A DNA stretch of 64,000 bases from a virus (IMGVR_UViG_3300008113_000014:1-64000); one strand, 5' to 3'. Positions 13,975 through 64,000 are shown, counted from the first letter of the stretch. A program made the numbers and translations. The notes: generated from the sequence alone by a model not told the origin.

Positions 13975-14517
13975 TTATATAGACTCATTCCACACTGGAA
14001 TAAATCGTCCATCTTCTGTTCTCGTATATGTAAGTATACCGTCCCCCATACGCCTTGTCAACTCTTGGCTTGTAGGAGTCATGTTGTTTGTTATTAATTT
14101 GTCTTTTCTTGGTTGTCCGATATGTATACTTGCAAGTATAGCACGTATCTCTCTGACATGTGATTCAGAGTAATAGGATCTAATTTTAAATCCTCTTTCT
14201 CCATCAAGCTTTGCACCTATTGGTGGAGGTATAACTCCTCGTTTAATTAAACTTGGAATATATTTTCTATGCCTATTGATAAGTTTAGCAGTTTCTGATA
14301 CACTGTATGCACGCTCACGATTTTTTTTAAAGTCAGAAAGTAGGCATGTCTCTAAACGATCTTTAGTTATATTATAAAACGTAACCATTCCAGTAGAACG
14401 TGAGCTATGATAAACCTTTACAAGGTCGCCATTAATAAACCATACTTTTACTTTACCTTTAATTACAGGTTCGTTATTGTATGCTTGGCTCTGGATTTTT
14501 CCTTTTGAAGTATCCAT
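13975..14517 (-). CDS. DNA-binding protein with MerR-like HTH
   Basis: YSVSETAKLINRHRKYI..LIKRGVIPPP...R.YYSE. Confidence 0.65.
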   Translation of the reverse strand: MDTSKGKIQSQAYNNEPVIKGKVKVWFINGDLVKVYHSSRSTGMVTFYNITKDRLETCLLSDFKKNRERAYSVSETAKLINRHRKYIPSLIKRGVIPPPIGAKLDGERGFKIRSYYSESHVREIRAILASIHIGQPRKDKLITNNMTPTSQELTRRMGDGILTYTRTEDGRFIPVWNESI

Positions 14518-14654
14518 CGTCCCTCTTTAGTTGCTGAAGGTGGATGATAGAATTTTCTATCACCACATGTAATACAAGATGTTTCTAAATGTTCAGCAGT
14601 TGTATACTGCCTATCCACAAAGATACGCCCATCGCATCTTTTACAATTTAACAT
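14463..14654 (-). CDS. Zinc-ribbon protein
   Basis: CKRC...CITCG. Confidence 0.65.
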   Translation of the reverse strand: MLNCKRCDGRIFVDRQYTTAEHLETSCITCGDRKFYHPPSATKEGRWILQKEKSRAKHTITNL

Positions 14655-14667
14655 TATATCCTTATGG

Positions 14668-14853
14668 TTAGTTGGCTATTTTTTCTTCAAGACTGTTTGA
14701 ATAATTTTCTACTGCTGCTTTCTTTTCTTCTTGTTCCTGAGAATACTGAGTTATCTCTGCTCTTAGAACAGCAATTTGTGTTTCATAGTTAGACACTAAT
14801 TCACCAATACGTTGCTGTAATGCCATAATGATAAGTTCTGCTTTGTTTTCCAT
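14668..14853 (-). CDS. Small coiled-coil protein
   Basis: Heptad-rich ORF with RBS. Confidence 0.65.
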   Translation of the reverse strand: MENKAELIIMALQQRIGELVSNYETQIAVLRAEITQYSQEQEEKKAAVENYSNSLEEKIAN

Positions 14854-14871
14854 TTTACACCCCTTTGTTTT

Positions 14872-15084
14872 TTATGATAAAGAATCTAATTCGTCTTGCA
14901 GTATTTGTTTTTGAGCAACAATATCTGATATTTGATTAGTTAAATTTTGCACATTACTTTGATTAGGTTCTGAAAGTGCTTGCTCTTGTGCTAAACTCAG
15001 AATAGCATTGTACTCTGAATATGCGATATTTTTTAAATGCTGTAAAACAATTACAGATTTTTCCTCATTGGTAAGATCTGACAT
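14872..15084 (-). CDS. Small helical protein, paralog of 15092..15307
   Basis: LTNEEK..I..QHLKN..YS shared with the neighbour. Confidence 0.7.
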   Translation of the reverse strand: MSDLTNEEKSVIVLQHLKNIAYSEYNAILSLAQEQALSEPNQSNVQNLTNQISDIVAQKQILQDELDSLS

Positions 15085-15091
15085 ATTTATA

Positions 15092-15307
15092 TTATCCTAA
15101 AGATGATATCTTTGATAACAGTGCTTCTTGTTTTGCATTAATGCTATCTATTTGCCCTTGGATCTCATCAATTAAAATTTGCTGTGGTTCAGCTGCTGCT
15201 GACTCCTCAACTAAAGAAATCTCAGAATTAAACTTAGAGTATTCCAGATTTTTAAGGTGTTGATTGATTATATCAATCTTTTCTTCATTGGTTAGCGTGT
15301 ATACCAT
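15092..15307 (-). CDS. Small helical protein, paralog of 14872..15084
   Basis: LTNEEKIDIINQHLKNLEYS; AAGGAG RBS. Confidence 0.7.
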   Translation of the reverse strand: MVYTLTNEEKIDIINQHLKNLEYSKFNSEISLVEESAAAEPQQILIDEIQGQIDSINAKQEALLSKISSLG

Positions 15308-15369
15308 TGCTGCTCCTTATTATAGTATATATTAAGTATATCATATAAACAATTTAGCATGTTTATATT

Positions 15370-18300
15370 TTATTCTGCTCCTGGAATAGTAAAGTATGGG
15401 AAGTAAGGCCCAGCAAAATAAGGTGGGAAGAATGGTCCAAAAGTAGGTGGGAAGAATGGTGGGAAGAATGGTGGGAAGAATGGTCCAAAAGTAGGTGGGA
15501 AGAATGGTGGGAAGAATGGTGCAGCCACACCCGTAGCTTGATTAACAACAGCCTGTGTTCCTGAAACGGTATTTTGATTTAATCCAACTACACTGATAGT
15601 ATATTGAGCATTAGAAACTAAACCAGTCAAAGCTCCAGAAGTGGTTGTTGTGGTAAATTTTGGGTATCCCGTAATTGAGACTGCACTACTAGTCCTAAAA
15701 ATATCAACATAAAATTGTGTAGCATTTGTTGATGACCAACTTGCTGTAAAACCATTTGAAGTAACATTTGTAATAGTAATAGCTGCTGGGCCTGATAATG
15801 TACAAAAAGACGTTGAAGAAGATACAGTATCACTAGCACTTGATATTACAGAAAGAGATGGTGAATAAATTGTATTTGCAGTCAAACCAGTTATTGATCT
15901 AGTAACCGCACTTGTTCCTGTATAAGGTGTAGATGGTGCTCCTGGAATTGATATAGAATAAGTTGATTGGTTTGTAGATCCCCACGAAAGTGTAGCAGAG
16001 GTAGCAGCAACTGCAGAAGATGAAAGTGCTGTAGATATTGTTGGAATAACCATTGATATTGATGATGCAGATCCAGTTCCTGTTGAGTTCTTTGCTCTAA
16101 CAAAAAAGTTGTTACTTCCAGATAAACCAGTTACGCTATATGTTCTTACATTTCCAATATCTGTATATCCAAGATTATTAATTTGAACTTCATAAGAAGT
16201 AACTGTGCCAGCAGGTGCGTCCCATGTAAATGTTTTTGATCCACCATTACCAGCAGATTTTGCTAAATTTGGTGGGGGCCCTGGAACTGCTGCTGATGTA
16301 GTAAATGATGACCCAGTAGTTGTTGCAGTATCTCCATTAGGTCCAGTTATTGTAAGAGTTGGGTTATAGGTTGTGCTTGGTGTTAATGCATTATTAACAG
16401 CATAAGTTGTTGCTGTAGTTCCAGTAAATGGACTTCCTGTAGCTCCTGGTATTGATAAAGAAAATGTAGATTGATTACTAGTATTATTTGTCCAGTTAAA
16501 TGCTGCACTGACTGATGTTACTGGATTTGCTGCTGGGAAAGAAGAAATAACTGGTGGAGTGAACTGTCCAGTGCTTGCTGATGAGCCTGCTCCTGAACCA
16601 TTATAAGCTCTTACCTGAAAAGTGTTTGCTCCATTAACAACTGTTAAAGCAACTGAGGTTGTTAAACCAATATCAATAAATCCAAGGTTATTAAGTTGAT
16701 ATTCATAACCAGTTGGTGTTGATCCTCCAGATGGTGCAGACCAAGTAAATGTTTTTGCTAGACCATTTCCAGTTGTTCTTTGAAGATTTGTTGGGGTTCC
16801 TGGTACTGGCGCTGCTGTAGTAAATGTTTGAGATGCTGATACAGTATCTCCAGTGCTAGATGCTACAGTCATTGTTGCCGTATAAGTTGTACTTCCAACA
16901 AACGCATTATTTATTGCATAAAATGTTCCAGAATCATTTCCAGTAAATGGTGTACCAGTAGCTCCTGGTATTGATAAAGAATAGCTTGACTGATAATTAG
17001 ATGTCCAATTAAATAAAGCTGATGTTGATGTTACTGGGCTTGGTGCTGGAAAAGTAAGAGTTGGTATAGTAAATTGTCCAGTGCTTACAGACGTTCCTGG
17101 TCCTGCTGCAGATCTTGCTCTTACTAAAAATGTTAAATTTTGCCCAGCTATATTTGTAAAAGATACAGACCTTGTTAGTCCTGTGCTTACCCAGCCTGCC
17201 CCACTTAAGTTATATTCATATGATGTAGGAGTTGTTCCAGATGATGGTGCGTCCCATGTAAATGTTTTATTTGTTCCATTGCCCAAAGTTCTTTGAAGAT
17301 TGGTTGGTGGGCCTGGTACTGGAGCAAGAGTAGTGAATGCAGTTCCTGTAACAGTGTGGGTATCTCCAGTACTAGAAGTAATTGTTAGTGTGGGAGTATA
17401 TGTTGTGCTTCCAACCAAATCTGTTGGTGGGGTAGTTGTTAGAGATTCCGTTGTTCCTGTATATGGAGAAGTTGCTCCTGCGGGAGATAAAGATAGAGAC
17501 CATGTTGCTTGATCATTAGATGCCCAATCAATTTCTGCTGCAGTAGAATTTCGTGTAAGCATAAATGGCGATGTTGTAACTCTTGGCACAGTAAATGATG
17601 GAGTTAATACAGCTGAGCTTTCAGCAGTTGGACCAACAGACTTTACTGAAAAAACATTTTGTGATCCATAGACTGTTGTTATTGAAACACTAGTTAGCAA
17701 GTTATTGCTTATCCATCCTGAATCACCAAATGGACTAGTATATCTATACTCATACCGTGTAATTGTTCCACCACCTACTGGATCTACCCAGCTAAATGTC
17801 TTTGATGTGCCATTTCCTAACGTTCTTTGTAGGTTTGTAGGTGGATTTGGAGGTGTCTGTAGTGGACCCCTAACAGCAAATTGCTTAATTCCGTAATCCA
17901 CTCCTATACTATAATCTGTTCCACTATTTTTTTGTGTGTCAACAGCATAGTAGTATGTATTTTCTGGAAGAGTAGATGGTGTAACTACAGAAGATGTTAC
18001 GGTATATATTCCTGATGATAATGTTGGAGTTGAAGTGGTTACTCCAGAAGTTACCTCTGTTCCATATGTTGCTATATTTGAAGTATTGTATGTTCCAGAT
18101 GTTGCTGTATACCACTTTACAGAGCTTCTTGTTGAGTCTGGAAGGTATTCTTGTGCACCATTCCAAGATGATGTGTAGTATAGTGTTGTAGGAAGACTAG
18201 TAACTACTCCTATTATAGATGGTGTAGTTCCAGATTTAGGCTCTGGCTCATTTCTTATTACTGGAATTCTATATCCGACACCTGTTTCTGTGTTGTCGGA

Positions 18301-18777
18301 GCTATCTTCTCCATTTGCATTGCTTGATGTTACAGCAGTAACTGTTAATAATAGATACTTACCGTCAAAGTTTGCTTGATCACACACAACAGATGCGTAT
18401 GAACCAGACATAGTTCTTTCAGATACTAAAGTTGTGTATGGACCAGTATCTAAGATCCCTGAAGTAGACCCCTCAACTTTATATCTATAAGAAGATATTG
18501 TTTCTCCATTGCCAACCCAAACACCCCTTTGTGCATAAACTGTTTCACCAAATATAATTGGATAAACAAGAGGTGAATTACCTGCAGTGTCTGATGAAAA
18601 AAATGGAGCTGTTGTTGTGTATGGTCCAGACTTTGGCCAGAATTGAACCCAGCCAGAAACCTTTTTAATAAATCCCTTTTTTACCTGTGCCCAGGTACCA
18701 CTAGTACCCCCTGGTTTTTTTACATCAAATCTTTTTACTTTGGTCCACCCAGATGGCTTCTTTGCATAAAATGGCAT
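15370..18777 (-). CDS. Fibronectin type III repeat tail/adhesin protein with C-terminal PFFP repeat
   Basis: Four tandem pairs of FN3-like domains (P.PPTNL...FTW.AP...YEY...F.VRA); ends APFFPPFFPPTFGPFFPPFFPPFFPPTFGPFFPPYFAGPYFPYFTIPGAE. Confidence 0.8.
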   Translation of the reverse strand: MPFYAKKPSGWTKVKRFDVKKPGGTSGTWAQVKKGFIKKVSGWVQFWPKSGPYTTTAPFFSSDTAGNSPLVYPIIFGETVYAQRGVWVGNGETISSYRYKVEGSTSGILDTGPYTTLVSERTMSGSYASVVCDQANFDGKYLLLTVTAVTSSNANGEDSSDNTETGVGYRIPVIRNEPEPKSGTTPSIIGVVTSLPTTLYYTSSWNGAQEYLPDSTRSSVKWYTATSGTYNTSNIATYGTEVTSGVTTSTPTLSSGIYTVTSSVVTPSTLPENTYYYAVDTQKNSGTDYSIGVDYGIKQFAVRGPLQTPPNPPTNLQRTLGNGTSKTFSWVDPVGGGTITRYEYRYTSPFGDSGWISNNLLTSVSITTVYGSQNVFSVKSVGPTAESSAVLTPSFTVPRVTTSPFMLTRNSTAAEIDWASNDQATWSLSLSPAGATSPYTGTTESLTTTPPTDLVGSTTYTPTLTITSSTGDTHTVTGTAFTTLAPVPGPPTNLQRTLGNGTNKTFTWDAPSSGTTPTSYEYNLSGAGWVSTGLTRSVSFTNIAGQNLTFLVRARSAAGPGTSVSTGQFTIPTLTFPAPSPVTSTSALFNWTSNYQSSYSLSIPGATGTPFTGNDSGTFYAINNAFVGSTTYTATMTVASSTGDTVSASQTFTTAAPVPGTPTNLQRTTGNGLAKTFTWSAPSGGSTPTGYEYQLNNLGFIDIGLTTSVALTVVNGANTFQVRAYNGSGAGSSASTGQFTPPVISSFPAANPVTSVSAAFNWTNNTSNQSTFSLSIPGATGSPFTGTTATTYAVNNALTPSTTYNPTLTITGPNGDTATTTGSSFTTSAAVPGPPPNLAKSAGNGGSKTFTWDAPAGTVTSYEVQINNLGYTDIGNVRTYSVTGLSGSNNFFVRAKNSTGTGSASSISMVIPTISTALSSSAVAATSATLSWGSTNQSTYSISIPGAPSTPYTGTSAVTRSITGLTANTIYSPSLSVISSASDTVSSSTSFCTLSGPAAITITNVTSNGFTASWSSTNATQFYVDIFRTSSAVSITGYPKFTTTTTSGALTGLVSNAQYTISVVGLNQNTVSGTQAVVNQATGVAAPFFPPFFPPTFGPFFPPFFPPFFPPTFGPFFPPYFAGPYFPYFTIPGAE
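15389..15520 (-). repeat. Coding tandem repeat (12-nt unit TGGGAAGAATGG on +) encoding PFFP
   Basis: Visible directly; includes a duplicated TCCAAAAGTAGGTGGGAAGAATGGTGGGAAGAATGG block. Confidence 0.95.
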
Positions 18778-55764: not shown

Positions 55765-56348
55765 AAAGGAAGATCTTTATTTAACGTTACTGGGTATTCG
55801 TCATTACCCCTCATAAAGATAGTTGAAAAATATCTTGTAGTATCATTTAGGACTGGTAATGAGCCATGCAGTATTTCTCCTCCGTGAATAAGGGCAGATC
55901 CTGCTTTTGGTTTAATTGTTATTCCTAATTCTGGATAGTCAATCTCTCCACCAAGATAGTCATTATTATAGTAAATTACGATGCCGTATCCAAGATAATA
56001 CCCTTGTGGGGTTGTGTCATTATCACGATGCTGACCAATTGCTTCTTCCTCTTTAAATCTAGATATTTTTATTTCTTTTTCACAGTAATAATATGATGGG
56101 AATATGTAATCAACTTTATCAAAAATAGCAGTCTTGCAAAATTCATTATTTTCACCAAGGAATAAGCTTTTGCCATACCAAAAATCATTCTCATCACCAA
56201 TATAGTTTTTGTCATGCCATTGATCTTCAGTTGCTTGATTAATAATAGCCAAAATTGACTCTAGCTCTAAAGAATCTAAAAAGTTTTCAATTTCATAAAC
56301 ATCTTCAGCAAGTTTGTTAATTTTAAAATTATACATAGGGCTAACCAA
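55761..56348 (-). CDS. 2OG-Fe(II) oxygenase, prolyl-hydroxylase-like
   Basis: HRD...YYNNDYLGGE...H..L.V....R. Confidence 0.88.
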   Translation of the reverse strand: MVSPMYNFKINKLAEDVYEIENFLDSLELESILAIINQATEDQWHDKNYIGDENDFWYGKSLFLGENNEFCKTAIFDKVDYIFPSYYYCEKEIKISRFKEEEAIGQHRDNDTTPQGYYLGYGIVIYYNNDYLGGEIDYPELGITIKPKAGSALIHGGEILHGSLPVLNDTTRYFSTIFMRGNDEYPVTLNKDLPF

Positions 56349-57009
56349 ATTTACTACTATTAATATGATTTAGCTCAATATGATTAATGTTAACATGGCT
56401 TGGTAGATCAGATACCCAGCGAATGCACTCTGCCATATCCTCAGCGGTAATAGCACTATCACGTCTTTCTTCTTGTGTATCAATTGTGCCTGGACAAATT
56501 TCAGTTATTTTAATACCATATTGAGGAAATTCTAGCCTCATTGTATCTACCAATGCCATCTGACCTCTTTTAGCATTAATGTAATTGCCTCCAGAACGGT
56601 ACGGAACCTTACCACCCAATGAGCTAACAAAAATAATGGTTGGGTTAGTGGACTTTTCCATTGCTGGTACAAATAACTGAGAAATATACATTGGCCCTGT
56701 TACATTAATATCATATGCAATTCTAAAGTTTGCTGGTGTTTCATTAATAATCATTGTTGGACTAGATCCACCACCTGCATTATTAACTAGCAAGTCTAAA
56801 GTGATGTCTTTATATTTTTCAGCAAATAGTTTTATTTGGTCAGAGTCTGTAACATCTATCTGATAAATTTCAACATTGTCTGAAACAAGGTCTAACATTT
56901 TAGAGATATTTCTTGATGCTGCGATTACCTTGTATCCACTTTTTTCAAGAAGCTTTACGGTTGCTCTTCCAACACCCTTGCTTGCTCCAGTAACTATTGC
57001 TGTTTTCAA
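56341..57009 (-). CDS. Short-chain dehydrogenase/reductase (YdfG-like)
   Basis: TGASKGVG, NNAG, S...YINAK, PG. Confidence 0.92.
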   Translation of the reverse strand: MKTAIVTGASKGVGRATVKLLEKSGYKVIAASRNISKMLDLVSDNVEIYQIDVTDSDQIKLFAEKYKDITLDLLVNNAGGGSSPTMIINETPANFRIAYDINVTGPMYISQLFVPAMEKSTNPTIIFVSSLGGKVPYRSGGNYINAKRGQMALVDTMRLEFPQYGIKITEICPGTIDTQEERRDSAITAEDMAECIRWVSDLPSHVNINHIELNHINSSKFG

Positions 57010-57741
57010 TTACATGCTCTGACTAGAATTAAGGCTCATGTGGTTATGAATCCAGTGACCAGGAACCATAAACTTATACCCAGACTTAACTACGTGTGCT
57101 GTGTGAAAGTATGGAGCGTATGCTGGAAATATAACAACGCTATTTGCTTTAGGTTTTAAACCAAAATCAATAGATTTATCAGCAACTGCAACATCATAGT
57201 CTAAGTCTACTGCTGGAGCACCTCTTACCCATCCATCAGAACTTGTCCATCCTCCATCATAATCTTTTAGCTGGAAAGAGATTTCTCCACCCTCACAGTC
57301 ATCATTGAGGTACATGACTAAAGAATATCTTAGGGTTTGGTCTCCATCTAATTGATCAAAGTGTGCCCCCATGCCCATTCCAGTATTATATTTTTTTATA
57401 TTAAAGGTTGGAAAAAGCCTTGGCTCATCAAAATCCCCCAAAGAAGATGCGTAGTCTTTGCAAACATTGTACATCGTAGTCATAATAGCGTCATATATAT
57501 ATTTACTTTTTTCTGCTACTTCTCCACTAAGGTTGTTTATTGCGTTTACGTCAAATGTTTTTGTTTCTCCATAAATAAAAGTTTTGTCGTTAGAAGATGT
57601 CCAAGGGTTCCAAACATTTACACCTAACTCACTGTATTGCTCAAGAGTATCTAGATCTTTCCAAACCTTTTTAAAGGTATCAAAATCTTCTATTGCATCA
57701 GTATAGTAATAAGTTTTTGGATCTAGTTTTTCTACGTTCAC
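57010..57741 (-). CDS. 2OG-Fe(II) oxygenase, prolyl-hydroxylase-like
   Basis: HFD...YLNDDCEGGE...H....V.SG.K. Confidence 0.88.
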   Translation of the reverse strand: MNVEKLDPKTYYYTDAIEDFDTFKKVWKDLDTLEQYSELGVNVWNPWTSSNDKTFIYGETKTFDVNAINNLSGEVAEKSKYIYDAIMTTMYNVCKDYASSLGDFDEPRLFPTFNIKKYNTGMGMGAHFDQLDGDQTLRYSLVMYLNDDCEGGEISFQLKDYDGGWTSSDGWVRGAPAVDLDYDVAVADKSIDFGLKPKANSVVIFPAYAPYFHTAHVVKSGYKFMVPGHWIHNHMSLNSSQSM

Positions 57742-57750
57742 CTGTTCTCC

Positions 57751-58422
57751 TTAGTATTTGTTGTTTTCATAGTGGTTTTTTTCTTTAATAAATCCTACTA
57801 TAACATATCTTATTGGTCCTTCTCCAACATGCTTTACTCCATGCTCGTGCTTATTGTCCCCTGGAAAAAACAACAAGTCTTTTGGCTTTGGTCTTAATGA
57901 TATTCCAAGATTTGGAAAGAACAGCTCTCCTTCTACATAGTCATCATTTATATATATAATTGTTGCATATTTTATTGATGGGTCTGTATGCTGATCTGTA
58001 TGAGATTTTAGTTCAACTCCTTTTTGCATTCTTTGAATTGTTGCTAATCCACTTAACATTAATAAAGGATCTGAATCATCAACCATTGTTGATAATCTTT
58101 TATAAAAAACTTGCTGCTCTTTATGATGCTTTATGTTTAAATTTTTATCTGCCCAGTTTTGTGTGATTTCAAATTTTCCTTCAGCAACAAGGTTGTCTAC
58201 ATCATCTCTTCCAAACTTTTCCATACAAAATCTAGCAAGATTTGTTGTATATTCTATTTCCCAGTCTGCTTGTGATGCATTATCTATGCATTTTAAAACA
58301 AAGTCTAGATCTTCATTTGTAAAAAAATCTTTAATCCAAAGAATTTCATCTGTAACTTCTTCAAATACAAAATTATTTTCTTTAAGTTTTTCTTTAAACT
58401 TTTCAAGCATTTGGCACCTCAT
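57751..58422 (-). CDS. 2OG-Fe(II) oxygenase, prolyl-hydroxylase-like
   Basis: HTD...YINDDYVEGE...HGV..V..G..R. Confidence 0.88.
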   Translation of the reverse strand: MRCQMLEKFKEKLKENNFVFEEVTDEILWIKDFFTNEDLDFVLKCIDNASQADWEIEYTTNLARFCMEKFGRDDVDNLVAEGKFEITQNWADKNLNIKHHKEQQVFYKRLSTMVDDSDPLLMLSGLATIQRMQKGVELKSHTDQHTDPSIKYATIIYINDDYVEGELFFPNLGISLRPKPKDLLFFPGDNKHEHGVKHVGEGPIRYVIVGFIKEKNHYENNKY

Positions 58423-59158
58423 TAGAGTTATACTTATTTCCGTCCTTGTCTAGCTTCCAGCCTTGCTTAAGCAATTCTTGCCATTCTGCTCTTTCAATTT
58501 CTTGTTTTGCTCTAGTTTCTTTCATTTCTGCAGCCCAGGCATCTCTTAATTCTTGTGGGTATGCATCTTCTTCTCTGTCGTCCCAAAAAGAACCAATTGT
58601 ATATCTAACTCCCTTAGTAATAAGGCTTACCTCGTGCATGTTATTAAATCCACCATCAAAAGCAGCAAGCATTCCAACTTTAGGTTGTAGACTTATCTCT
58701 TGATCTGGGAACTGTAACATTCCACCATCAAAGTCATCGTTCAAATATAAGAATGCTGCATATCTACTTCTTGTAAATGCACCAGAGTGTCCGTGTTCGT
58801 CTGTGTTGTCAGAGTGTTTTCTTGCATACGCTCCTGGCTCCCACTTTTGTGTGTGATAACCAATTTGAGAAATTATTTTTGGATCAAGGTCGTGAACGCT
58901 TGCAACTGCATCAATAATTCCTTGTTTTATTTGTGAAAATATGTCACTTGGCAATCCTTCATTCTTTACATGCTCGTCGTCATCTTGTGGTAAAACAGAA
59001 GAGTATGATTCATAAAAAGATATAGGCATCCAGGTAATCAATTCAAGTTCTGCATGCTTGTCTAAAACTTTTACAAGTTTAGCAGCAGTTTCTGAATCAA
59101 TAAAGTTTTCATAAACAACAATGTCTTTTGTTATTCTAGTTTTATTGGTTAAGTTCAT
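58403..59158 (-). CDS. 2OG-Fe(II) oxygenase, prolyl-hydroxylase-like
   Basis: HSD...YLNDDFDGG...HEV..I..G.R. Confidence 0.88.
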   Translation of the reverse strand: MNLTNKTRITKDIVVYENFIDSETAAKLVKVLDKHAELELITWMPISFYESYSSVLPQDDDEHVKNEGLPSDIFSQIKQGIIDAVASVHDLDPKIISQIGYHTQKWEPGAYARKHSDNTDEHGHSGAFTRSRYAAFLYLNDDFDGGMLQFPDQEISLQPKVGMLAAFDGGFNNMHEVSLITKGVRYTIGSFWDDREEDAYPQELRDAWAAEMKETRAKQEIERAEWQELLKQGWKLDKDGNKYNSNEVPNA

Positions 59159-60027
59159 TTTATTCTCACAGCTCCCTCTATCTCATTTCTTTGTGGGTTG
59201 TCTATTCTAAACTGCTCGTTCAGCTTTGGTTGCATGCTAGACCAAACATCTTTTCCAAATTCTTTTTCTTTCTCATACCATTCATCTGTTCCTTTTTGAT
59301 ATTTTTGCCAATACATTCTTGCTAAAAATTTGTTTTTGTTATAAGACGGCATAACCCCATGTAAGTATGGTTTGTCATCCTCTGTTAAGTAATCTGGGTG
59401 TCCTGATGGAAAAACTAAAAGATCTCCAGCTTCTGGCTTGTACTTAACAAGTTTGTCTCCCATAGCAAAGTCAATTTCTCCACCTTCATAGTCATCATTA
59501 AAATAAATTGTACATGTTATTATAAACTTATATCCTGGAGCAGATCCTTGCTCTCTCATATAGTCTGAATGATATCTCATTCCATGTTGTTCTTCTTCGT
59601 TGCTGATATGATACTTTCCTATTGTTCCACCTGTCCATCTCCAGGTTGGAATAAGATCGCCTGATTCGTCTATGGACAATGACTCTAAATCTACATCAAT
59701 GTTATATTTTTTAATATAGTCTTCTGTAACTAAATGAAAGTTTTTCATCATTTCTATACCAAATTGTTTTTGGTTTTCTTCAATTTCTGTTTTTGTTTCA
59801 ATGCTTTCTAAACCTCCATCTTTATAATCCATAGAAAAAGAAGGTGTCATTGGATTTAAATATTCTCCAAAAATAGACCACTTTGTCCAAGGATTAAAAA
59901 GTCTATCTTCTGACTCTATTAAAGAATCTGTTAAAACCTTATAAGATTTTGAAATATCTTTAAACATGTTTTTATAAACAAGAATATGTGGATATATCTC
60001 TACAGATTCAAGAGCTGGAGTAGTCAT
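59155..60027 (-). CDS. 2OG-Fe(II) oxygenase, prolyl-hydroxylase-like
   Basis: HSD...YFNDDYEGGE...HGV.P.....K. Confidence 0.88.
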   Translation of the reverse strand: MTTPALESVEIYPHILVYKNMFKDISKSYKVLTDSLIESEDRLFNPWTKWSIFGEYLNPMTPSFSMDYKDGGLESIETKTEIEENQKQFGIEMMKNFHLVTEDYIKKYNIDVDLESLSIDESGDLIPTWRWTGGTIGKYHISNEEEQHGMRYHSDYMREQGSAPGYKFIITCTIYFNDDYEGGEIDFAMGDKLVKYKPEAGDLLVFPSGHPDYLTEDDKPYLHGVMPSYNKNKFLARMYWQKYQKGTDEWYEKEKEFGKDVWSSMQPKLNEQFRIDNPQRNEIEGAVRIK

Positions 60028-60702
60028 TTATGGTTTCCTGTCTCCAGTGTGCTCTGTAATTTCCCAGAAAAATGGGCATGTAAATCTTAATCCACTCTTT
60101 ATCTCAGTCACTCCGTGAATATAGTTTTTGTCTCCTGGGAAGAAGTAAGCTGCACCTTTTTTTGGTTTAAACTGTACACCTTGTAGTGGGAAATACAGTT
60201 CTCCTCCCTCATAGTCTTCATTTAAATAGAACAAACTAGATAAATCATAATTAGGAAAATCGTTTGGAAGTCCAGCGTCTGGGCCATCGTGAAGTTCTTT
60301 GTCTGCGTGAGGTTTTTGAAATTGTCCTGGAAGCCACTTTACTATAGTGGTACCTGTAGGGATAACCTTTACTTTGTAAAACTCTTCTACTATTGGTTGT
60401 AGTCTTTGAAATAGTCCAGCAATGACTGGGGAAATGTTTGGATCGTTTTTATCTAGGCTTGGTTGAGTTGCTACTCTATCTTTCCAATAATCAGAATCAT
60501 AAACAACCGTTCCATTTTCATTAACATGACTTTGTGTTACATCCCAAATTGTCAAAGATTTTGCAGATTTTTCTAAAAACTCTATTTCTTCTTGAGTCAT
60601 AAAGTTTTCTAGCTCAACGATCATGTCTTTGCTATCACCAAACCAGCCAGATGGTGTGAGTGAAGCCTTTCTAACTACAACAGAAGCATCCATTTTATCC
60701 AT
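60028..60702 (-). CDS. 2OG-Fe(II) oxygenase, prolyl-hydroxylase-like
   Basis: HAD...YLNEDYEGGE...HGV..I.SG.R. Confidence 0.88.
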   Translation of the reverse strand: MDKMDASVVVRKASLTPSGWFGDSKDMIVELENFMTQEEIEFLEKSAKSLTIWDVTQSHVNENGTVVYDSDYWKDRVATQPSLDKNDPNISPVIAGLFQRLQPIVEEFYKVKVIPTGTTIVKWLPGQFQKPHADKELHDGPDAGLPNDFPNYDLSSLFYLNEDYEGGELYFPLQGVQFKPKKGAAYFFPGDKNYIHGVTEIKSGLRFTCPFFWEITEHTGDRKP

Positions 60703-60704
60703 AA

Positions 60705-61433
60705 TTAGATTATACCATTTCCCTTGTTTGATGTATTATCAGTAACAGAAAGACGTAAAACCTTAGTTTCGTGAGAACCCGTACTTTCACCTTTTTCATT
60801 TACTGCATCTCTATACCAGTCAGTCCATTGTCCAGACTTGTTGATTTCTTGTGCAGCTTCACCATACGACTGATGAGCCATCTGCCTTTTTCTATCTACA
60901 TCTGAATAATCAATTATTTGAATTGATGTATTGTCCATTGCCGTCAAAGAAATTGGAATTATTGTAGCAATTGGGGTTCCTGCTTTTATAGTAATTTCCT
61001 TGTTTGCAGATCTTGCTTTAATTGCTAATGGAAAACCAGTATCAAGCCAAGATGTAGATATTAAAGATGACATTGTTTCAAAATCATCATTAAAGTAATT
61101 AACTGGATTAATTGTAAGCATGCTAACGTTTTGCTCAGATCTAAAAGTTAGGCCAGTATGTAGGCTAACTGTAGACTGCCCTCTTCCAGTATATGTAAAG
61201 TCTGAACCTTCTAGTATAGTTACATTCTCTGAACTTGTATCATTTATACCGTTCCAAATAAACTTAATGTCTTCAGTACATGAAAGACTCCAGCCAACCA
61301 TATTCGCTTGTGTAACTGGAAAACATCTATAGGCATGCTTTTCTGGAGTTACATCCATCCAATCTCTTTTAATTGACATTGGAGAAAGTATGATTTTTGA
61401 ATCTGGAAATCTTTCAGCTGATATATTAAGCAT
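60705..61433 (-). CDS. DUF6065-like protein
   Basis: RDWMD.TP..HAYRCFP...AN..GW and AGTP.A.IIP motifs. Confidence 0.7.
   Translation of the reverse strand: MLNISAERFPDSKIILSPMSIKRDWMDVTPEKHAYRCFPVTQANMVGWSLSCTEDIKFIWNGINDTSSENVTILEGSDFTYTGRGQSTVSLHTGLTFRSEQNVSMLTINPVNYFNDDFETMSSLISTSWLDTGFPLAIKARSANKEITIKAGTPIATIIPISLTAMDNTSIQIIDYSDVDRKRQMAHQSYGEAAQEINKSGQWTDWYRDAVNEKGESTGSHETKVLRLSVTDNTSNKGNGII
60709..60717 (-). promoter_or_regulatory. Extended -10 promoter TGGTATAAT (leaderless) inside the oxygenase block
   Basis: 6 nt before the ATG at 60702. Confidence 0.6.
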
Positions 61434-62089
61434 TAGTCTTTGTCTACCATATACATTTCGTTAGTGTGAAACTTTTTGTTATAATCAAGCATTGTTACAA
61501 TAGAATACTTTGTTCCTGAAATAACTGGCATTGCACGATGAGGATACATGAAGTTTGATGGAAAAATAAATAAATCTCCTGCATCTGCCTTAATGTCTAG
61601 GTTCTGGAGTCTAAAGAAAAGTGAACCGCCTTCATAGTCATCATTTGGGTATGCAACAAGTGACACTGTGCAGTTATAAGAAAAACCATGATCATGGTGT
61701 TCTTGAAAGTGTTGTCCTGGTCCATATTTAATAAAATTAAAAGCTTCCCAATACTTTAAATCCATTATGTTGTAGTCTTTTCTGTAATCATCAACACATG
61801 GAGACTTAACATCATATAGATCTTGCCAAAGCTCTTGTAGTTTTATTGAGTCTGGTGTTTTGTTTTGTTCAATATCAGTTTTCTTATACTTAAAATCTAC
61901 ACAGTCTCTGTAGTCTGGAATTAGCTGCTGGTATCCAACATATGCTGGTTGCCAAGTAAATTGTTCTTTTGAACCTAGTGGCTTTACAACAGATTCAATT
62001 CTGTTTATCACATCAATATCTTTATTAATGACACCTTTATAGCATACAATACCATTACCATAGTTAACCTTTTCTGTCCAAGTTTGCAT
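61433..62089 (-). CDS. 2OG-Fe(II) oxygenase, prolyl-hydroxylase-like
   Basis: HHD...YPNDDYEGG...FPSNFMYPH...PV.SGTKY. Confidence 0.9.
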   Translation of the reverse strand: MQTWTEKVNYGNGIVCYKGVINKDIDVINRIESVVKPLGSKEQFTWQPAYVGYQQLIPDYRDCVDFKYKKTDIEQNKTPDSIKLQELWQDLYDVKSPCVDDYRKDYNIMDLKYWEAFNFIKYGPGQHFQEHHDHGFSYNCTVSLVAYPNDDYEGGSLFFRLQNLDIKADAGDLFIFPSNFMYPHRAMPVISGTKYSIVTMLDYNKKFHTNEMYMVDKD

Positions 62090-62097
62090 TTTTCTCC

Positions 62098-62874
62098 CTA
62101 TTTATATTCTCTTCTAGACCAAACTTTATTTTTATAAATACCGCCGTCTGGTTGGCGATAAAAATTTGCATTGGCTATCATTTTAGCATATATCTTTTCT
62201 TGATTTTGAAACTCTATCTCATGGCTCCAGTTTTCTCTTTTAAATGGTAAAATTTGGACATATGGAGTCCCTGCTGGTATTGTTCCTTCCCAGCCTTCTG
62301 CAATAAAAAATGGAAAGGTACCAAGCAGGTGAACACTGTCATTATCAACAACACCAGTTGTATTAATAAATGGAAGATCAAATCTATTCATAGGTGTCAT
62401 AAATAATGCACTATATCCTTCTGGAAGTTCAAATCCCCAATCTGGATACCAGGCAAAATGATCTTTGTAAAATCCTTTTGGGTGCTCAAACTGTGGCATA
62501 GCAAGTCTTTTTCCACAAAAATCTTGATGTCTTTTATCTTCTATCTTAACATCTATTGATCCTGTCTCAGTTTTAAAAAAAGTAAGGTCACAAGGAGTTC
62601 TTAATACATATCCTGTTGAAAACCCATCCATAATTGCTGGACAAGCTTTCCATGTAGGTATTTTTCCATAGTCATCTGTAGTTCCTTCTTTTGGAAAAGG
62701 ACAAACTTCTTTTGGTGCTTTGTAGTATTCACCAGTTGGCATTTTTGCAAATCTGTCGGCATCTTTATACCATTGTGGTATTTCAGACTGTGTTGTTTTA
62801 GGCACTGATTTACTATCCTTGTTTAACCAAGGCCTAAAAGATCTAAAGATTACTAAATTATCTTTTAGACTCAT
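62098..62874 (-). CDS. DUF6065-like protein
   Basis: PQWYK, K.CPA..D....GY, PEGYS.L...P.N, GVVD.D, AGTP..QI.PFKR. Confidence 0.6.
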   Translation of the reverse strand: MSLKDNLVIFRSFRPWLNKDSKSVPKTTQSEIPQWYKDADRFAKMPTGEYYKAPKEVCPFPKEGTTDDYGKIPTWKACPAIMDGFSTGYVLRTPCDLTFFKTETGSIDVKIEDKRHQDFCGKRLAMPQFEHPKGFYKDHFAWYPDWGFELPEGYSALFMTPMNRFDLPFINTTGVVDNDSVHLLGTFPFFIAEGWEGTIPAGTPYVQILPFKRENWSHEIEFQNQEKIYAKMIANANFYRQPDGGIYKNKVWSRREYK

Positions 62875-63586
62875 GATGATGCCCTAATAAATTAATATCT
62901 GTCATAATTACAACACAATATTTTGTTCCAGATATCATTGGAAGAGATGCATGTTCATATATATAGTTTGATGGGAAAATTGCTATGTCTCCAACTTTTG
63001 GTGTTAGTGTGTATCCATCTAATCTTGGAAATTTAATTTCTCCACCTTCGTAGTCGTCATTTATATATATAACTGCAGAAACTGTAGTATTGTATGCTGG
63101 TCCATGGTCGGCATGAATATTAAAGTGCTTACCCTGTCCCTCATACTTTACAAAATTAAAAGCTTCATAGTATATAACATTTATTCCCCAATATTTTGCA
63201 TAGTCATCTATGCATAGTTTTAATTTTTGATAAATCTCTTCGTGTAAATCAATTAGTTCACCATTAAACTCATCTCGTGGACCAAGATTTTCTTGCTTAT
63301 ATCTAAAATCTACAGCATCTCTTGCTTTTTTTATTGGTGTAGTAGCATTGGTTACTTGTGCTTCTGACCACTTATACTTTCTACCATTAGACAAATTGGA
63401 CTCAAGAATATTGATGTATCTTTTAGAGTCCTCCAAAGAAAACGTATTTCTGTATATATTTAATCCAAGTCCTGGATTTTCTATTACAATATTTTTTTCA
63501 GATATATCTCTATTAACCCTATTTGATACAGTCTCAGATCTATCTTTAGTAAACCATGGGTTTTCATTTTCATCATAAGTGTTCAT
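62858..63586 (-). CDS. 2OG-Fe(II) oxygenase, prolyl-hydroxylase-like
   Basis: HAD...YINDDYEGGE...FPSNYIYEH...P..SGTKY. Confidence 0.9.
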   Translation of the reverse strand: MNTYDENENPWFTKDRSETVSNRVNRDISEKNIVIENPGLGLNIYRNTFSLEDSKRYINILESNLSNGRKYKWSEAQVTNATTPIKKARDAVDFRYKQENLGPRDEFNGELIDLHEEIYQKLKLCIDDYAKYWGINVIYYEAFNFVKYEGQGKHFNIHADHGPAYNTTVSAVIYINDDYEGGEIKFPRLDGYTLTPKVGDIAIFPSNYIYEHASLPMISGTKYCVVIMTDINLLGHHHESKR

Positions 63587-63605: not shown

Positions 63606-63634
63606 ATTATACACTACCTTTATCTTTTTGTAAA
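63606..63634 (-). promoter_or_regulatory. Sigma70-type promoter of the oxygenase block
   Basis: TTTACA-17 nt-TATAAT on minus strand, then AGGGG RBS. Confidence 0.65.
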
Positions 63635-63687
63635 CAAAAACAACCCTTGTTGCAAGTATTTTGCAAGACATGAATGATAGCACTCAT

Positions 63688-63716
63688 AAAACACAAAAGG
63701 CCAAACAATGTTGGCC
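63688..63716 (-). terminator. Probable intrinsic terminator after the PFFP-repeat gene
   Basis: GGCCAA-6 nt-TTGGCC followed by TTTTGTGTTTT on minus strand. Confidence 0.6.
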
Positions 63717-63739: not shown

Positions 63740-64000
63740 TTACTGTACACCTGGAAGTGTAAAGTATGGGAAGTAAGGGTTATTTGCAGGGAAGTATGGG
63801 AAGTACGGTGGGAAGAATGGGAAGTAAGGGAAGTAAGGGAAGAATGGAGGGAAGAATGGGAAGAACGGGAAGTAAGGGAAGAAAGGTGGGAAGAACGGGA
63901 AGTATGGGAAGAACGGGAAGAAAGGTGGGAAGAACGGGAAGAATGGGAAGAACGGAAAGAAAGGTGGGAAAAATGGTGGGAAGAATGGGAAGAACGGTGG
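63740..64000 (-). CDS. 3' end of a gene encoding a Pro/Phe/Tyr-only repeat (start outside window; not in ORF track)
   Basis: Manual translation ...PPFFPFFPPFFPPFFPFFPFFPFFPPFFPFFPYFPFFPPFFPYFPFFPFFPPFFPYFPYFPFFPPYFPYFPANNPYFPYFTLPGVQ-stop; synonymous variation in Pro codons. Confidence 0.85.
   Translation of the reverse strand, partial: PPFFPFFPPFFPPFFPFFPFFPFFPPFFPFFPYFPFFPPFFPYFPFFPFFPPFFPYFPYFPFFPPYFPYFPANNPYFPYFTLPGVQ

What the first reader, a model, noticed from the sequence alone, without database searches (positions are those of the whole stretch)
15370..15520. Same PFFP repeat and terminal tag on a tail-region FN3 protein 48 kb away
Seen: the 1135-aa FN3 protein ends ...PFFPPYFAGPYFPYFTIPGAE, and the window-edge protein ends ...PYFPANNPYFPYFTLPGVQ. 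The DNA matches at 27 of 29 nt (15380-15408 vs 63750-63778), including an exact 20-mer, and the stop-codon spacing is identical. Inference: PYFPYFT[IL]PG[AV][EQ]-COOH is a portable recognition, assembly or sorting tag that marks several virion proteins as clients of one pathway. Its presence on a tail-module protein ties the putative modification system to the virion surface.
Basis: partly seen in the sequence, partly recalled or inferred. Interest (0 to 1): 0.78.

Follow-up and report, generated by a model that had tools for sequence, protein, structure and literature searches.

The report
Shared end-piece on phage Pro-Phe tails
Two otherwise different fibre-type proteins of an uncultured lake phage end in the same 12-residue piece; related phages show it is one of many swappable ends of proline-phenylalanine tails, usually matched between a phage's two tailed proteins, with function still unknown.

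Summary
The last tail-module gene (15370-18777, minus strand; 1135 aa, protein A) and the short FN3 protein at the window edge (protein B) both end in P-Y-F-P-Y-F-T-[IL]-P-G plus two residues and a stop. The DNA matches at 27 of 29 bases and shares an exact 20-mer.

They are the only two Pro/Phe-tailed proteins in the 108.9-kb genome.

In public phage contigs the motif [FY]FPYFT.PG always lies exactly two codons before the stop (18 real hits). It occurs on four different protein architectures, one with almost no Pro-Phe tract. It is therefore a real, portable, strictly C-terminal unit.

It is also only one of many interchangeable ends of such tracts. Others are ...FK, cysteine knots, Hint domains and a Peptidase_S74 chaperone.

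In 6 of 9 phages with two tailed proteins the two ends match each other, with a different end in each phage (permutation p about 1e-4). Some matches are fresh DNA copies. One is held at protein level only.

Close relatives of protein A keep the tract without the tag, so the tag is not indispensable there.

A role as the enzymes' recognition tag is not shown. The scan has reported the same twin-end pattern on other genomes.

The parts
15370..18777 (-). Protein A: 1135-aa last gene of the tail module. N-terminal anchor-like all-beta region (about 310 aa), a string of FN3 domains, and a C-terminal Pro/Phe tract with the tag.
   Evidence: ORF and translation. Pfam fn3. It lies downstream of the portal, protease, capsid, tape measure and minor tail genes. 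The N-terminal domain is shared with 14 database proteins and about 30 loci whose C-terminal parts differ. AF2 gives pLDDT 80 and an Ig-like all-beta fold.
15373..15522 (-). 50-residue Pro/Phe tract of protein A, interrupted by two P-T-F-G units.
   Evidence: It is collinear with the tract of orthologs in G008/G009.
15422..15521 (.). 48-nt tandem repeat (2.1 copies, 100% match) inside A's tract. Copy number is polymorphic in nature.
   Evidence: TRF. The database variant P0004 is identical over the N-terminal 310 residues searched but 16 residues (one unit) shorter in the tract.
15373..15411 (-). Tag on protein A: the last 13 codons (G-P-Y-F-P-Y-F-T-I-P-G-A-E), with the stop at 15370-15372.
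   Evidence: Alignment with G008/G009 shows that only this terminal patch of about 45-60 nt differs between otherwise collinear flanks.
63740..64000 (-). Protein B (3' part; the gene runs to genome position 64705, beyond the window). 321 aa: two FN3 domains and a 116-residue Pro/Phe/Tyr tail.
   Evidence: AF2 models the FN3 domains confidently; the tail has pLDDT about 40 and no secondary structure.
63743..63781 (-). Tag on protein B: the last 13 codons (N-P-Y-F-P-Y-F-T-L-P-G-V-Q), with the stop at 63740-63742.
63699..63716 (-). Terminator-like hairpin with a T run directly after B.
   Evidence: 2 found against 0.1 expected in shuffles.
63606..63634 (-). Near-consensus promoter-like site (11 of 12) ahead of the first oxygenase gene.
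   Evidence: This is a consensus match only.
56341..63586 (-). Module downstream of B: seven PF13640 (P4H-like 2OG-Fe(II)) oxygenases in the array (an eighth match lies elsewhere in the genome), one DUF6065 protein, one 258-aa protein with no Pfam match, and an SDR.
   Evidence: Pfam and a genome-wide PF13640 search. The oxygenase next to B is weakly nearest to the Bacillus anthracis collagen-type P4H, 3ITQ/5HV0.

Best explanation
The tag is the end-piece of a mobile C-terminal cassette. The cassette is a proline/aromatic tract plus a short cap, and lake phages of this group graft it onto the distal ends of fibre-type virion proteins.

In this phage the tract of tail protein A is inherited vertically. 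Only the last 15 or so codons were replaced, by a short recombination patch of the type carried by the small FN3 protein B.

The cap is kept by selection and must sit at the free C-terminus. A phage's two tailed proteins usually carry the same cap because both tails have to fit one shared partner.

My preferred partner is the maturation route encoded beside B. The cap supplies the only collagen-type X-Pro-Gly site of these tails, and the same motif opens the triple helix of the collagen-like protein encoded just upstream of B. So the cap is most likely a finishing or docking element and hydroxylation site for the P4H-like battery.

Shown: portability, strict position, twin ends within genomes, patch replacement, and co-occurrence with oxygenase genes.

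Inferred: selection for a shared partner, and the identity of that partner.
For: - Only two tailed proteins exist in the genome.
- In viral contigs, all 18 real hits of [FY]FP[FY]FT.PG lie exactly two codons before the stop. They fall on four architectures: the B family, a 283-aa FN3 protein with Cys-containing repeats (L199), 634-728-aa PT-linker proteins (L004, L202; L202 has almost no tract), and A.
- Patch replacement: A of G000 and of G008/G009 are collinear upstream and downstream and differ only in the terminal 45-60 nt.
- Twin ends occur in G000, G001, G010, G052, G048 and L129, with a different end in each. The mean within-genome score is 51.8 against 18.4 between genomes, permutation p about 1e-4.
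- In G000, G010 and G052 the tracts of the two proteins differ and only the end matches.
- Fresh DNA copies: 78 identical bases in G010 and 26 of 27 in G052.
- Match held at protein level: in G001 seven identical residues are encoded by six different codons.
- All 10 tag-bearing records tested hold PF13640 genes.
- In G001 an oxygenase of the same subfamily as the one next to B directly follows the tail gene.
- The oxygenase next to B is nearest to a collagen-type P4H.
- The collagen-like protein upstream of B starts its helix with aromatic-hydrophobic-x-V-P-G-x-Q-G, conserved in 10 loci.
Against: - Homologous oxygenase arrays (orthologs 48-55% identical between G000 and G001) accompany tracts with unrelated ends, some without any Pro-Gly. 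Examples are G010, L129, and Hint domains, which would be cut off.
- Close A orthologs keep the tract but not the tag.
- A hydroxylation site alone does not explain the fixed two-residue distance to the C-terminus.
- Three of nine two-tail genomes do not have twin ends (G007, G049, G054).
- Invariance of the tag core among pattern hits is partly by construction of the search.
- Repeats favour recombination, so some matching would arise without selection.
Confidence: 0.4

Rival explanations
1. Host-contact tip. The end-piece is the distal tip of the phage's fibres and touches the host envelope. Both fibres of a phage carry the same tip because they meet the same surface. Tips differ between phages and are swapped by recombination as host range shifts, as with other tail-fibre tips.
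For: - A has a conserved N-terminal region and a hypervariable C-terminal part, and is the last tail gene. That is the usual layout of a receptor-binding fibre.
- Ends are highly diverse between related phages and matched within them.
- A Peptidase_S74 chaperone, typical of fibre and spike C-termini, follows the tract in L137.
- Small Cys-rich terminal domains are the commonest alternative end.
Against: - A 12-residue uncharged peptide on a tract predicted to be disordered is an unusual receptor-binding element.
- The same tag is kept in phages whose other proteins are only 40-50% identical, which is not what arms-race variation predicts.
- It does not explain the tight link to oxygenase arrays.
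Confidence: 0.25
2. Assembly cap. The end-piece nucleates or registers the bundling of several tails, either as homo-oligomers or as A together with B or the collagen-like protein. This would resemble C-terminal knots, foldons and chaperone domains of other fibres. Matched ends allow co-assembly.
For: - The position is strictly C-terminal.
- In other phages the same slot holds modules that established knowledge links to C-terminal folding, stapling or self-processing of fibres: Peptidase_S74, cysteine knots and Hint domains.
- The many ...FK ends equal what S74 cleavage would leave in L137.
- The end shared in G010 begins like an S74 domain (S-D-x-R-x-K-x-N-V; by eye only).
- The tag resembles the helix start of the neighbouring collagen-like protein.
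Against: - There is no evidence that Pro-Phe tracts oligomerise.
- The 3- and 4-residue units alternate irregularly, which argues against a regular helix bundle.
- Pfam finds no S74 in the G010, G000 or G001 ends.
Confidence: 0.2
3. Neutral passenger. Recombination between the repeat tracts of the two genes occasionally carries the neighbouring end along. The tag on A has no function of its own.
For: - Fresh DNA-level copies exist in G010 and G052.
- The tract is a perfect recombination substrate, with a 48-nt repeat that is copy-number polymorphic.
- Close A orthologs do well without the tag.
Against: - In G000 the copies differ at 9 of 42 bases yet the 10-residue core is intact, and the three replacements are conservative: I/L, A/V, E/Q.
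- The G001 twin ends are conserved through six synonymous codon changes.
- In G000, G010 and G052 the tracts differ while the ends match, so the end, not the repeat, is what is shared.
- The position is fixed relative to the stop on four architectures.
Confidence: 0.15

Closest known systems
Mosaic C-terminal modules of phage tail fibres and spikes, including the Peptidase_S74 intramolecular chaperone domain (PF13884) of endosialidase-type fibres
   Same: The N-terminal anchor is conserved and the C-terminal parts are exchangeable by recombination. In one related contig (L137) a bona fide S74 domain sits exactly where the tag sits here, directly after the Pro-Phe tract.
   Different: The tag is 12-13 residues with no protease or chaperone domain. 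The unit exchanged is a few codons rather than a folded domain. The same end is placed on two different proteins of one phage.
Chlorovirus PBCV-1 prolyl 4-hydroxylase with virus-encoded Pro-rich repeat proteins, and Bacillus anthracis collagen-type P4H (PDB 3ITQ, 5HV0)
   Same: Virus- or bacterium-encoded P4H-like 2OG oxygenases occur together with proline-rich repeat proteins. X-Pro-Gly is the classical site of collagen-type P4Hs (established knowledge). The oxygenase next to B hits the B. anthracis enzyme (E 2e-4).
   Different: Here there is a battery of seven to thirteen paralogous oxygenases, the tracts are Pro-Phe rather than Pro-Ala-Pro-Lys or Gly-X-Y, and no chemistry is shown. No terminal tag is known to me in those systems.
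Leader/follower recognition peptides of RiPP precursors
   Same: A short conserved peptide is attached to varied 'cores' encoded next to tailoring enzymes.
   Different: The carriers are large structural proteins. No RiPP recognition element was found. The same enzyme families accompany other ends, and no cleavage is indicated.
C-terminal sorting signals (LPXTG/sortase, PEP-CTERM, PGF-CTERM)
   Same: A short C-terminal motif containing Pro and Gly occurs on several surface-type proteins.
   Different: Those signals are followed by a hydrophobic helix and a basic tail and act at a membrane. Here only two residues follow Pro-Gly, and the proteins are phage virion proteins made in the cytoplasm.
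Bacterial intein-like (Hint) C-terminal self-processing domains
   Same: In several related phages a Hint-like domain follows the tract at the tag's position, and in G048 both tailed proteins carry it.
   Different: There is no Hint domain in this genome. The Pfam matches elsewhere are below the curated cut-off, and the motifs were read by eye.

Membership tests
Fibronectin type III domain proteins (PF00041) | Match to the fn3 profile above the curated cut-off | tested here: met
   A scores 45.5 bits against a cut-off of 25. B scores 33 bits. AF2 models two confident beta-sandwich domains in B.
Sortase / PEP-CTERM-type C-terminal sorting signal | Motif followed by a hydrophobic transmembrane stretch and basic residues | tested here: not met
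   Exactly two residues follow Pro-Gly in all 18 real hits.
Peptidase_S74 intramolecular chaperone (PF13884) | Profile match directly after the fibre's mature C-terminus | tested here: not met
   No match in the ends of A or B of G000, G001 or G010, even at E up to 10. The domain is present in the related contig L137 (43.6 bits against a cut-off of 22).
Hint / intein-like C-terminal domain | Cys-started block A and terminal His-Asn, with a profile match | tested here: not met
   Absent from G000. In L091, L117, L132 and L140 the motifs are present, but Pfam Intein_splicing/Hint_2 matches are below the cut-off.
Collagen-type prolyl 4-hydroxylase substrate | X-Pro-Gli site (X-Pro-Gly) accessible in an extended chain | tested here: met
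   The tag holds the only Pro-Gly of either tail, and the tail is predicted to be unstructured.
Collagen-type prolyl 4-hydroxylase substrate | Hydroxyproline formed by the neighbouring enzymes | not testable with these tools
   This needs mass spectrometry or an enzyme assay.
RiPP-like leader/follower-directed tailoring | Enzyme carries a peptide-recognition element, and recognition depends on the tag | tested here: inconclusive
   Pfam shows only oxygenase, DUF6065 and SDR domains. Homologous arrays occur with other ends. Binding is not testable here.
Twin-end Pro/aromatic tail cassettes of lake phages (the pattern defined in this report) | Two tailed proteins per genome sharing an end-piece that differs from the ends in related genomes | tested here: met
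   G000 and five further genomes out of nine.

The most novel reading that the evidence does not exclude
The end-piece is a genuine address label. It would be a short C-terminal follower peptide by which a phage-encoded battery of oxygenases (or an assembly factor) recognises otherwise unrelated virion proteins. Grafting a dozen codons onto a gene would then enrol its product in a virion-tailoring pathway, and phages would keep label and reader matched within each genome. That would be a RiPP-like logic applied to whole structural proteins of a virus.
Probability: 0.2. Interest if true: 0.8.

Novelty: new variant of a known kind. Interest (0 to 1): 0.58.

Why it matters
Tandem 2OG-oxygenase arrays in phage genomes have no established substrates. 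The Pro-Phe tails are the best candidates, and this finding shows that the tails reach the tail tip as well as the small protein beside the enzymes.

The new point is the behaviour of the last dozen residues. They move between genes as a unit, must sit at the free C-terminus, and are usually the same on a phage's two tailed proteins while differing between phages. That gives a compact, testable handle: delete or swap 12 residues and ask what reads the tails, whether enzymes, an assembly partner or the host surface.

It also documents unusually fine-grained mosaicism in tail-fibre genes. Patches of 45-80 nt are exchanged at repeat tracts.

If the end is only a passenger or a generic cap, the finding remains a modest addition to tail-fibre modularity.

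Tried and rejected
- **Complex prediction.** The oxygenase next to B with the last 40 residues of A gave no answer (score 0.01, controls not run). This is no evidence either way.
- **The look-up of encoding contigs.** The long contigs of tail-protein homologs P0005 and P0013, which lack a Pro-Phe tail, could not be checked for oxygenase arrays.
- **Pfam on the isolated ends** of G000, G001 and G010 found nothing.
- **ESM Atlas search with B's tail** gave no usable hit.
- **Foldseek on A's N-terminal domain** returned only generic Ig-like matches with TM below 0.3.
- **Cultured phages.** No relative of A's N-terminal domain was found.
- **Literature.** Searches for Pro-Phe repeats in phages and for P4H with tail fibres found nothing relevant. 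The only hits were antamanide-type fungal peptides and PR-39-type antimicrobial peptides that share short PPFF strings.
- **A tag-specific partner gene.** The collagen-like protein and a 133-aa protein looked enriched in tag loci (12 of 18 against 4 of 80). However, they also accompany other end types (L110, L114, L080, L129), and the loci are phylogenetically and positionally biased, so I rejected them as tag-specific.
- **dN/dS on the tag.** Rejected because the search pattern fixes the amino acids.
- **Sortase-type sorting signal.** Considered and rejected, because no hydrophobic or basic tail follows the motif.
- **Wrong reading frame for the tracts.** Considered and rejected. The tracts are in frame with the FN3 domains, and variation falls on third codon positions.

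Full report
**1. The observation**

The window is the first 64 kb of a 108,863-bp, 37% G+C phage record. Its capsid and DnaE proteins are 44% and 54% identical to those of 130-kb Streptomyces siphophages. The host is therefore probably an actinobacterium.

- The genes run on the minus strand in this order: portal, protease, capsid, a 2985-aa tape measure, and three large tail proteins.
- The last tail gene (15370-18777) encodes a 1135-aa FN3 protein, here called A. Its final 50 residues are a Pro/Phe tract ending in G-P-Y-F-P-Y-F-T-I-P-G-A-E.
- The ORF cut by the window edge, here called B, is a 321-aa protein in the full genome. It has two FN3 domains and a 116-residue Pro/Phe/Tyr tail ending in N-P-Y-F-P-Y-F-T-L-P-G-V-Q.
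- The stated DNA match is exact: 27 of 29 bases, the same distance from the stop, and a 20-mer found nowhere else in the window.
- A six-frame scan of the whole genome finds no third protein with such a tail.
- Seven P4H-like oxygenases, a DUF6065 protein and an SDR follow B. A terminator-like hairpin and a promoter-like site lie between B and the first oxygenase.

**2. The tag as a unit**

I scanned IMG/VR for DNA able to encode [FY]FP[FY]FT.PG. The scan gave 20 stretches, of which 18 lie in real genes. In all 18 the stop follows exactly two codons after Pro-Gly. Position was not part of the pattern, so this result is unbiased.

The carriers fall into four architectures:
- the B family
- a 283-aa FN3 protein with Cys-containing repeats (L199)
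- 634-728-aa proteins built of Pro-Thr linkers and small Cys domains (L004, L202), with no Pfam match
- protein A

L202 has almost no Pro-Phe tract before the tag. The tag can therefore travel on its own.

One caveat applies. The invariance of the core among these hits is imposed by the search, so I do not use it as evidence of constraint.

**3. How the tag came to be on A**

The N-terminal 310 residues of A define a family found in 14 database proteins and about 30 loci. The C-terminal parts of these proteins differ widely:
- Most have no Pro/aromatic tail.
- The closest relatives do have the Pro-Phe tract, but without the tag.
- In G007 (a complete genome) and L063 the tract is internal and followed by another FN3 domain.
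- In G008 and G009 the protein ends ...GSDPV.

A DNA alignment of G000 with G008/G009 is collinear through the tract and through the small genes downstream. Only the last 45-60 nt differ. The tag on A is therefore a short patch placed on a vertically inherited tract.

At DNA level A's tag is about as far from B's tag of the same genome (33 of 42 bases) as from B tags of other phages (29-33 of 42). The transfer is therefore not recent, and the donor need not have been the present B gene. The three amino-acid differences are conservative (I/L, A/V, E/Q).

**4. Twin ends**

| Genome | What the two tailed proteins share |
|---|---|
| G001 (complete, 112 kb) | Both the A ortholog and a 395-aa protein end in x-P-P-G-F-F repeats, the same V-F-P-V-P-G-S, and then an acidic helix-like extension |
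| G010 | The A ortholog has a Pro-Thr-Pro-Val tract and B a Pro-Phe tract, yet both share a 26-residue end encoded by 78 identical bases |
| G052 | Different tracts, the same last eight residues, 26 of 27 bases identical |
| G048 | Both proteins carry the same Hint-like domain |
| L129/L153 | Two adjacent genes share a P-P-P-W-F-P end |

Three genomes do not show twin ends: G007, G049 and G054.

Over nine genomes the last 20 residues are much more alike within genomes than between them. The mean local score is 51.8 against 18.4, with a label-permutation p of about 1e-4.

The pairs span all ages. Some are fresh copies (G010, G052). At the other extreme, in G001 seven identical residues are encoded by six different codons, including TCT against AGC for serine. 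That pair was not found through any tag pattern, and it argues for selection on the match rather than recent copying alone.

Two earlier notes of this scan report the same pattern on other genomes: a shared 15-residue end, and a shared Hint cap. I did not re-examine those genomes.

**5. One end-piece among many**

A scan for the Pro-Phe tract alone hit more than 120 phage contigs. What follows the tract varies:
- ...P-P-x-F-K at the C-terminus (many contigs)
- cysteine-rich knots of 25-45 residues (the commonest)
- Hint-like domains that start with Cys and end with His-Asn
- a Peptidase_S74 chaperone domain (L137, above the Pfam cut-off)
- aromatic ends followed by charged residues
- further FN3 or other domains

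None of the 16 nearest Pro-Tyr-Phe tails in the 5.8-billion-protein collection carries the present tag. The slot after the tract is thus a cassette site. Several of its occupants are modules known elsewhere for finishing, stapling or self-cleaving fibre C-termini.

**6. Link to the oxygenases**

- All ten tag-bearing records tested hold PF13640 genes, usually five or more.
- A-family records without Pro/aromatic tails hold none to two, although most are fragments.
- In G001 an oxygenase of the same subfamily as the one beside B lies directly after the tail gene.
- The oxygenase beside B is weakly nearest to the collagen-type P4H of Bacillus anthracis.
- The tag contains the only X-Pro-Gly of either tail.
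- The collagen-like protein encoded just upstream of B opens its triple helix with a very similar string, aromatic-hydrophobic-x-V-P-G-x-Q-G, conserved in ten loci.

These points favour the tails as substrates, with the tag as one site. They do not show that the tag is the recognition element. Orthologous arrays accompany other ends, some without any Pro-Gly.

**7. Structure**

AF2 models B's two FN3 domains with confidence. The whole tail is left unstructured, with pLDDT about 40. A's N-terminal region is all-beta and Ig-like, with no informative structural neighbour.

**8. Verdict**

- The tag is a real, portable, position-fixed unit, and the hydroxylase module is tied to the tail through the tract.
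- Only two proteins carry it, and it is dispensable in close relatives of A.
- It is one of many exchangeable ends, and its reader is unknown.

My preferred reading is a finishing or docking piece for the shared maturation route, at 0.4. A host-contact tip (0.25), an assembly cap (0.2) and a neutral passenger (0.15) remain open.

I found no description of Pro-Phe tails or their ends in the searchable literature. Within this scan the phenomenon has been seen repeatedly.

Noticed in passing
L137:1085-1771 (-): A Pro-Phe tract is followed directly by a Peptidase_S74 intramolecular chaperone domain (43.6 bits, cut-off 22). The junction reads ...P-P-A-F-K | S-D-V-R-D-K. The many tract proteins that simply end ...F-K look like the product such a cleavage would leave.
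   Followed up: partly
L091, L117, L132, L140, L086, L116, L156; G048 (L213, L214): Hint/intein-like domains (Cys start, His-Asn end) follow the tract in several phages. In G048 two different tailed proteins carry near-identical copies. The Pfam matches are below the curated cut-off.
   Followed up: partly
L034:9933-10082 (+) and L062:16908-17096 (-): The end shared by the two tailed proteins of G010 starts S-D-Y-R-L-K-E-N-V, which resembles the first residues of an S74 domain. It may be a truncated remnant. A 2-nt indel makes one copy six residues longer.
   Followed up: partly
L001:1746-2456 (-), genome 64746-65456, just beyond the window: A 236-aa collagen-like protein (Pfam Collagen) lies directly upstream of B. 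It has Y-position prolines (V-P-G, I-P-G, K-P-G) and is therefore an obvious second candidate substrate for the P4H-like enzymes. Together with a 133-aa protein it is syntenic with tailed proteins in 16 loci.
   Followed up: partly
window 15422-15521: The perfect 48-nt tandem repeat in A's tract is copy-number polymorphic. A database variant identical over the N-terminal 310 residues searched (P0004, 1119 aa) lacks exactly one unit.
   Followed up: yes
window 14517-15370 (-): The apparent gap after A holds two small paralogous genes of about 70 codons. Both start M-x-x-L-T-N-E-E-K, and both are conserved in G008/G009. Function unknown.
   Followed up: no
P0006, P0008, P0010, P0012, P0013 (A-family homologs); L014:5974-8331: Several A-family proteins without Pro-Phe tails end in ...V-Y-P or ...L-Y-P. 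In G001 the same V-Y-P-G string precedes the appended repeats, as if the tail was added after an older C-terminus.
   Followed up: no
P0022 and about 80 further hits: Most proteins sharing B's FN3 region carry a globular C-terminal domain ending ...A-L-Y-G-I-K-G instead of a Pro-Phe tail. The FN3 stalk is thus a common chassis with alternative C-terminal ends.
   Followed up: no
L087, L089, L116 (N-termini): Large tract-bearing proteins of more distant phages start with the same W/K-rich hairpin-repeat motif as protein A. The tail-protein family that receives Pro-Phe tracts is therefore wider than the profile search showed.
   Followed up: no
window 63606-63716 (-): A terminator-like hairpin and then a near-consensus promoter separate B from the oxygenase array. 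This suggests that the abundant structural gene and the enzyme genes are expressed at different levels.
   Followed up: partly
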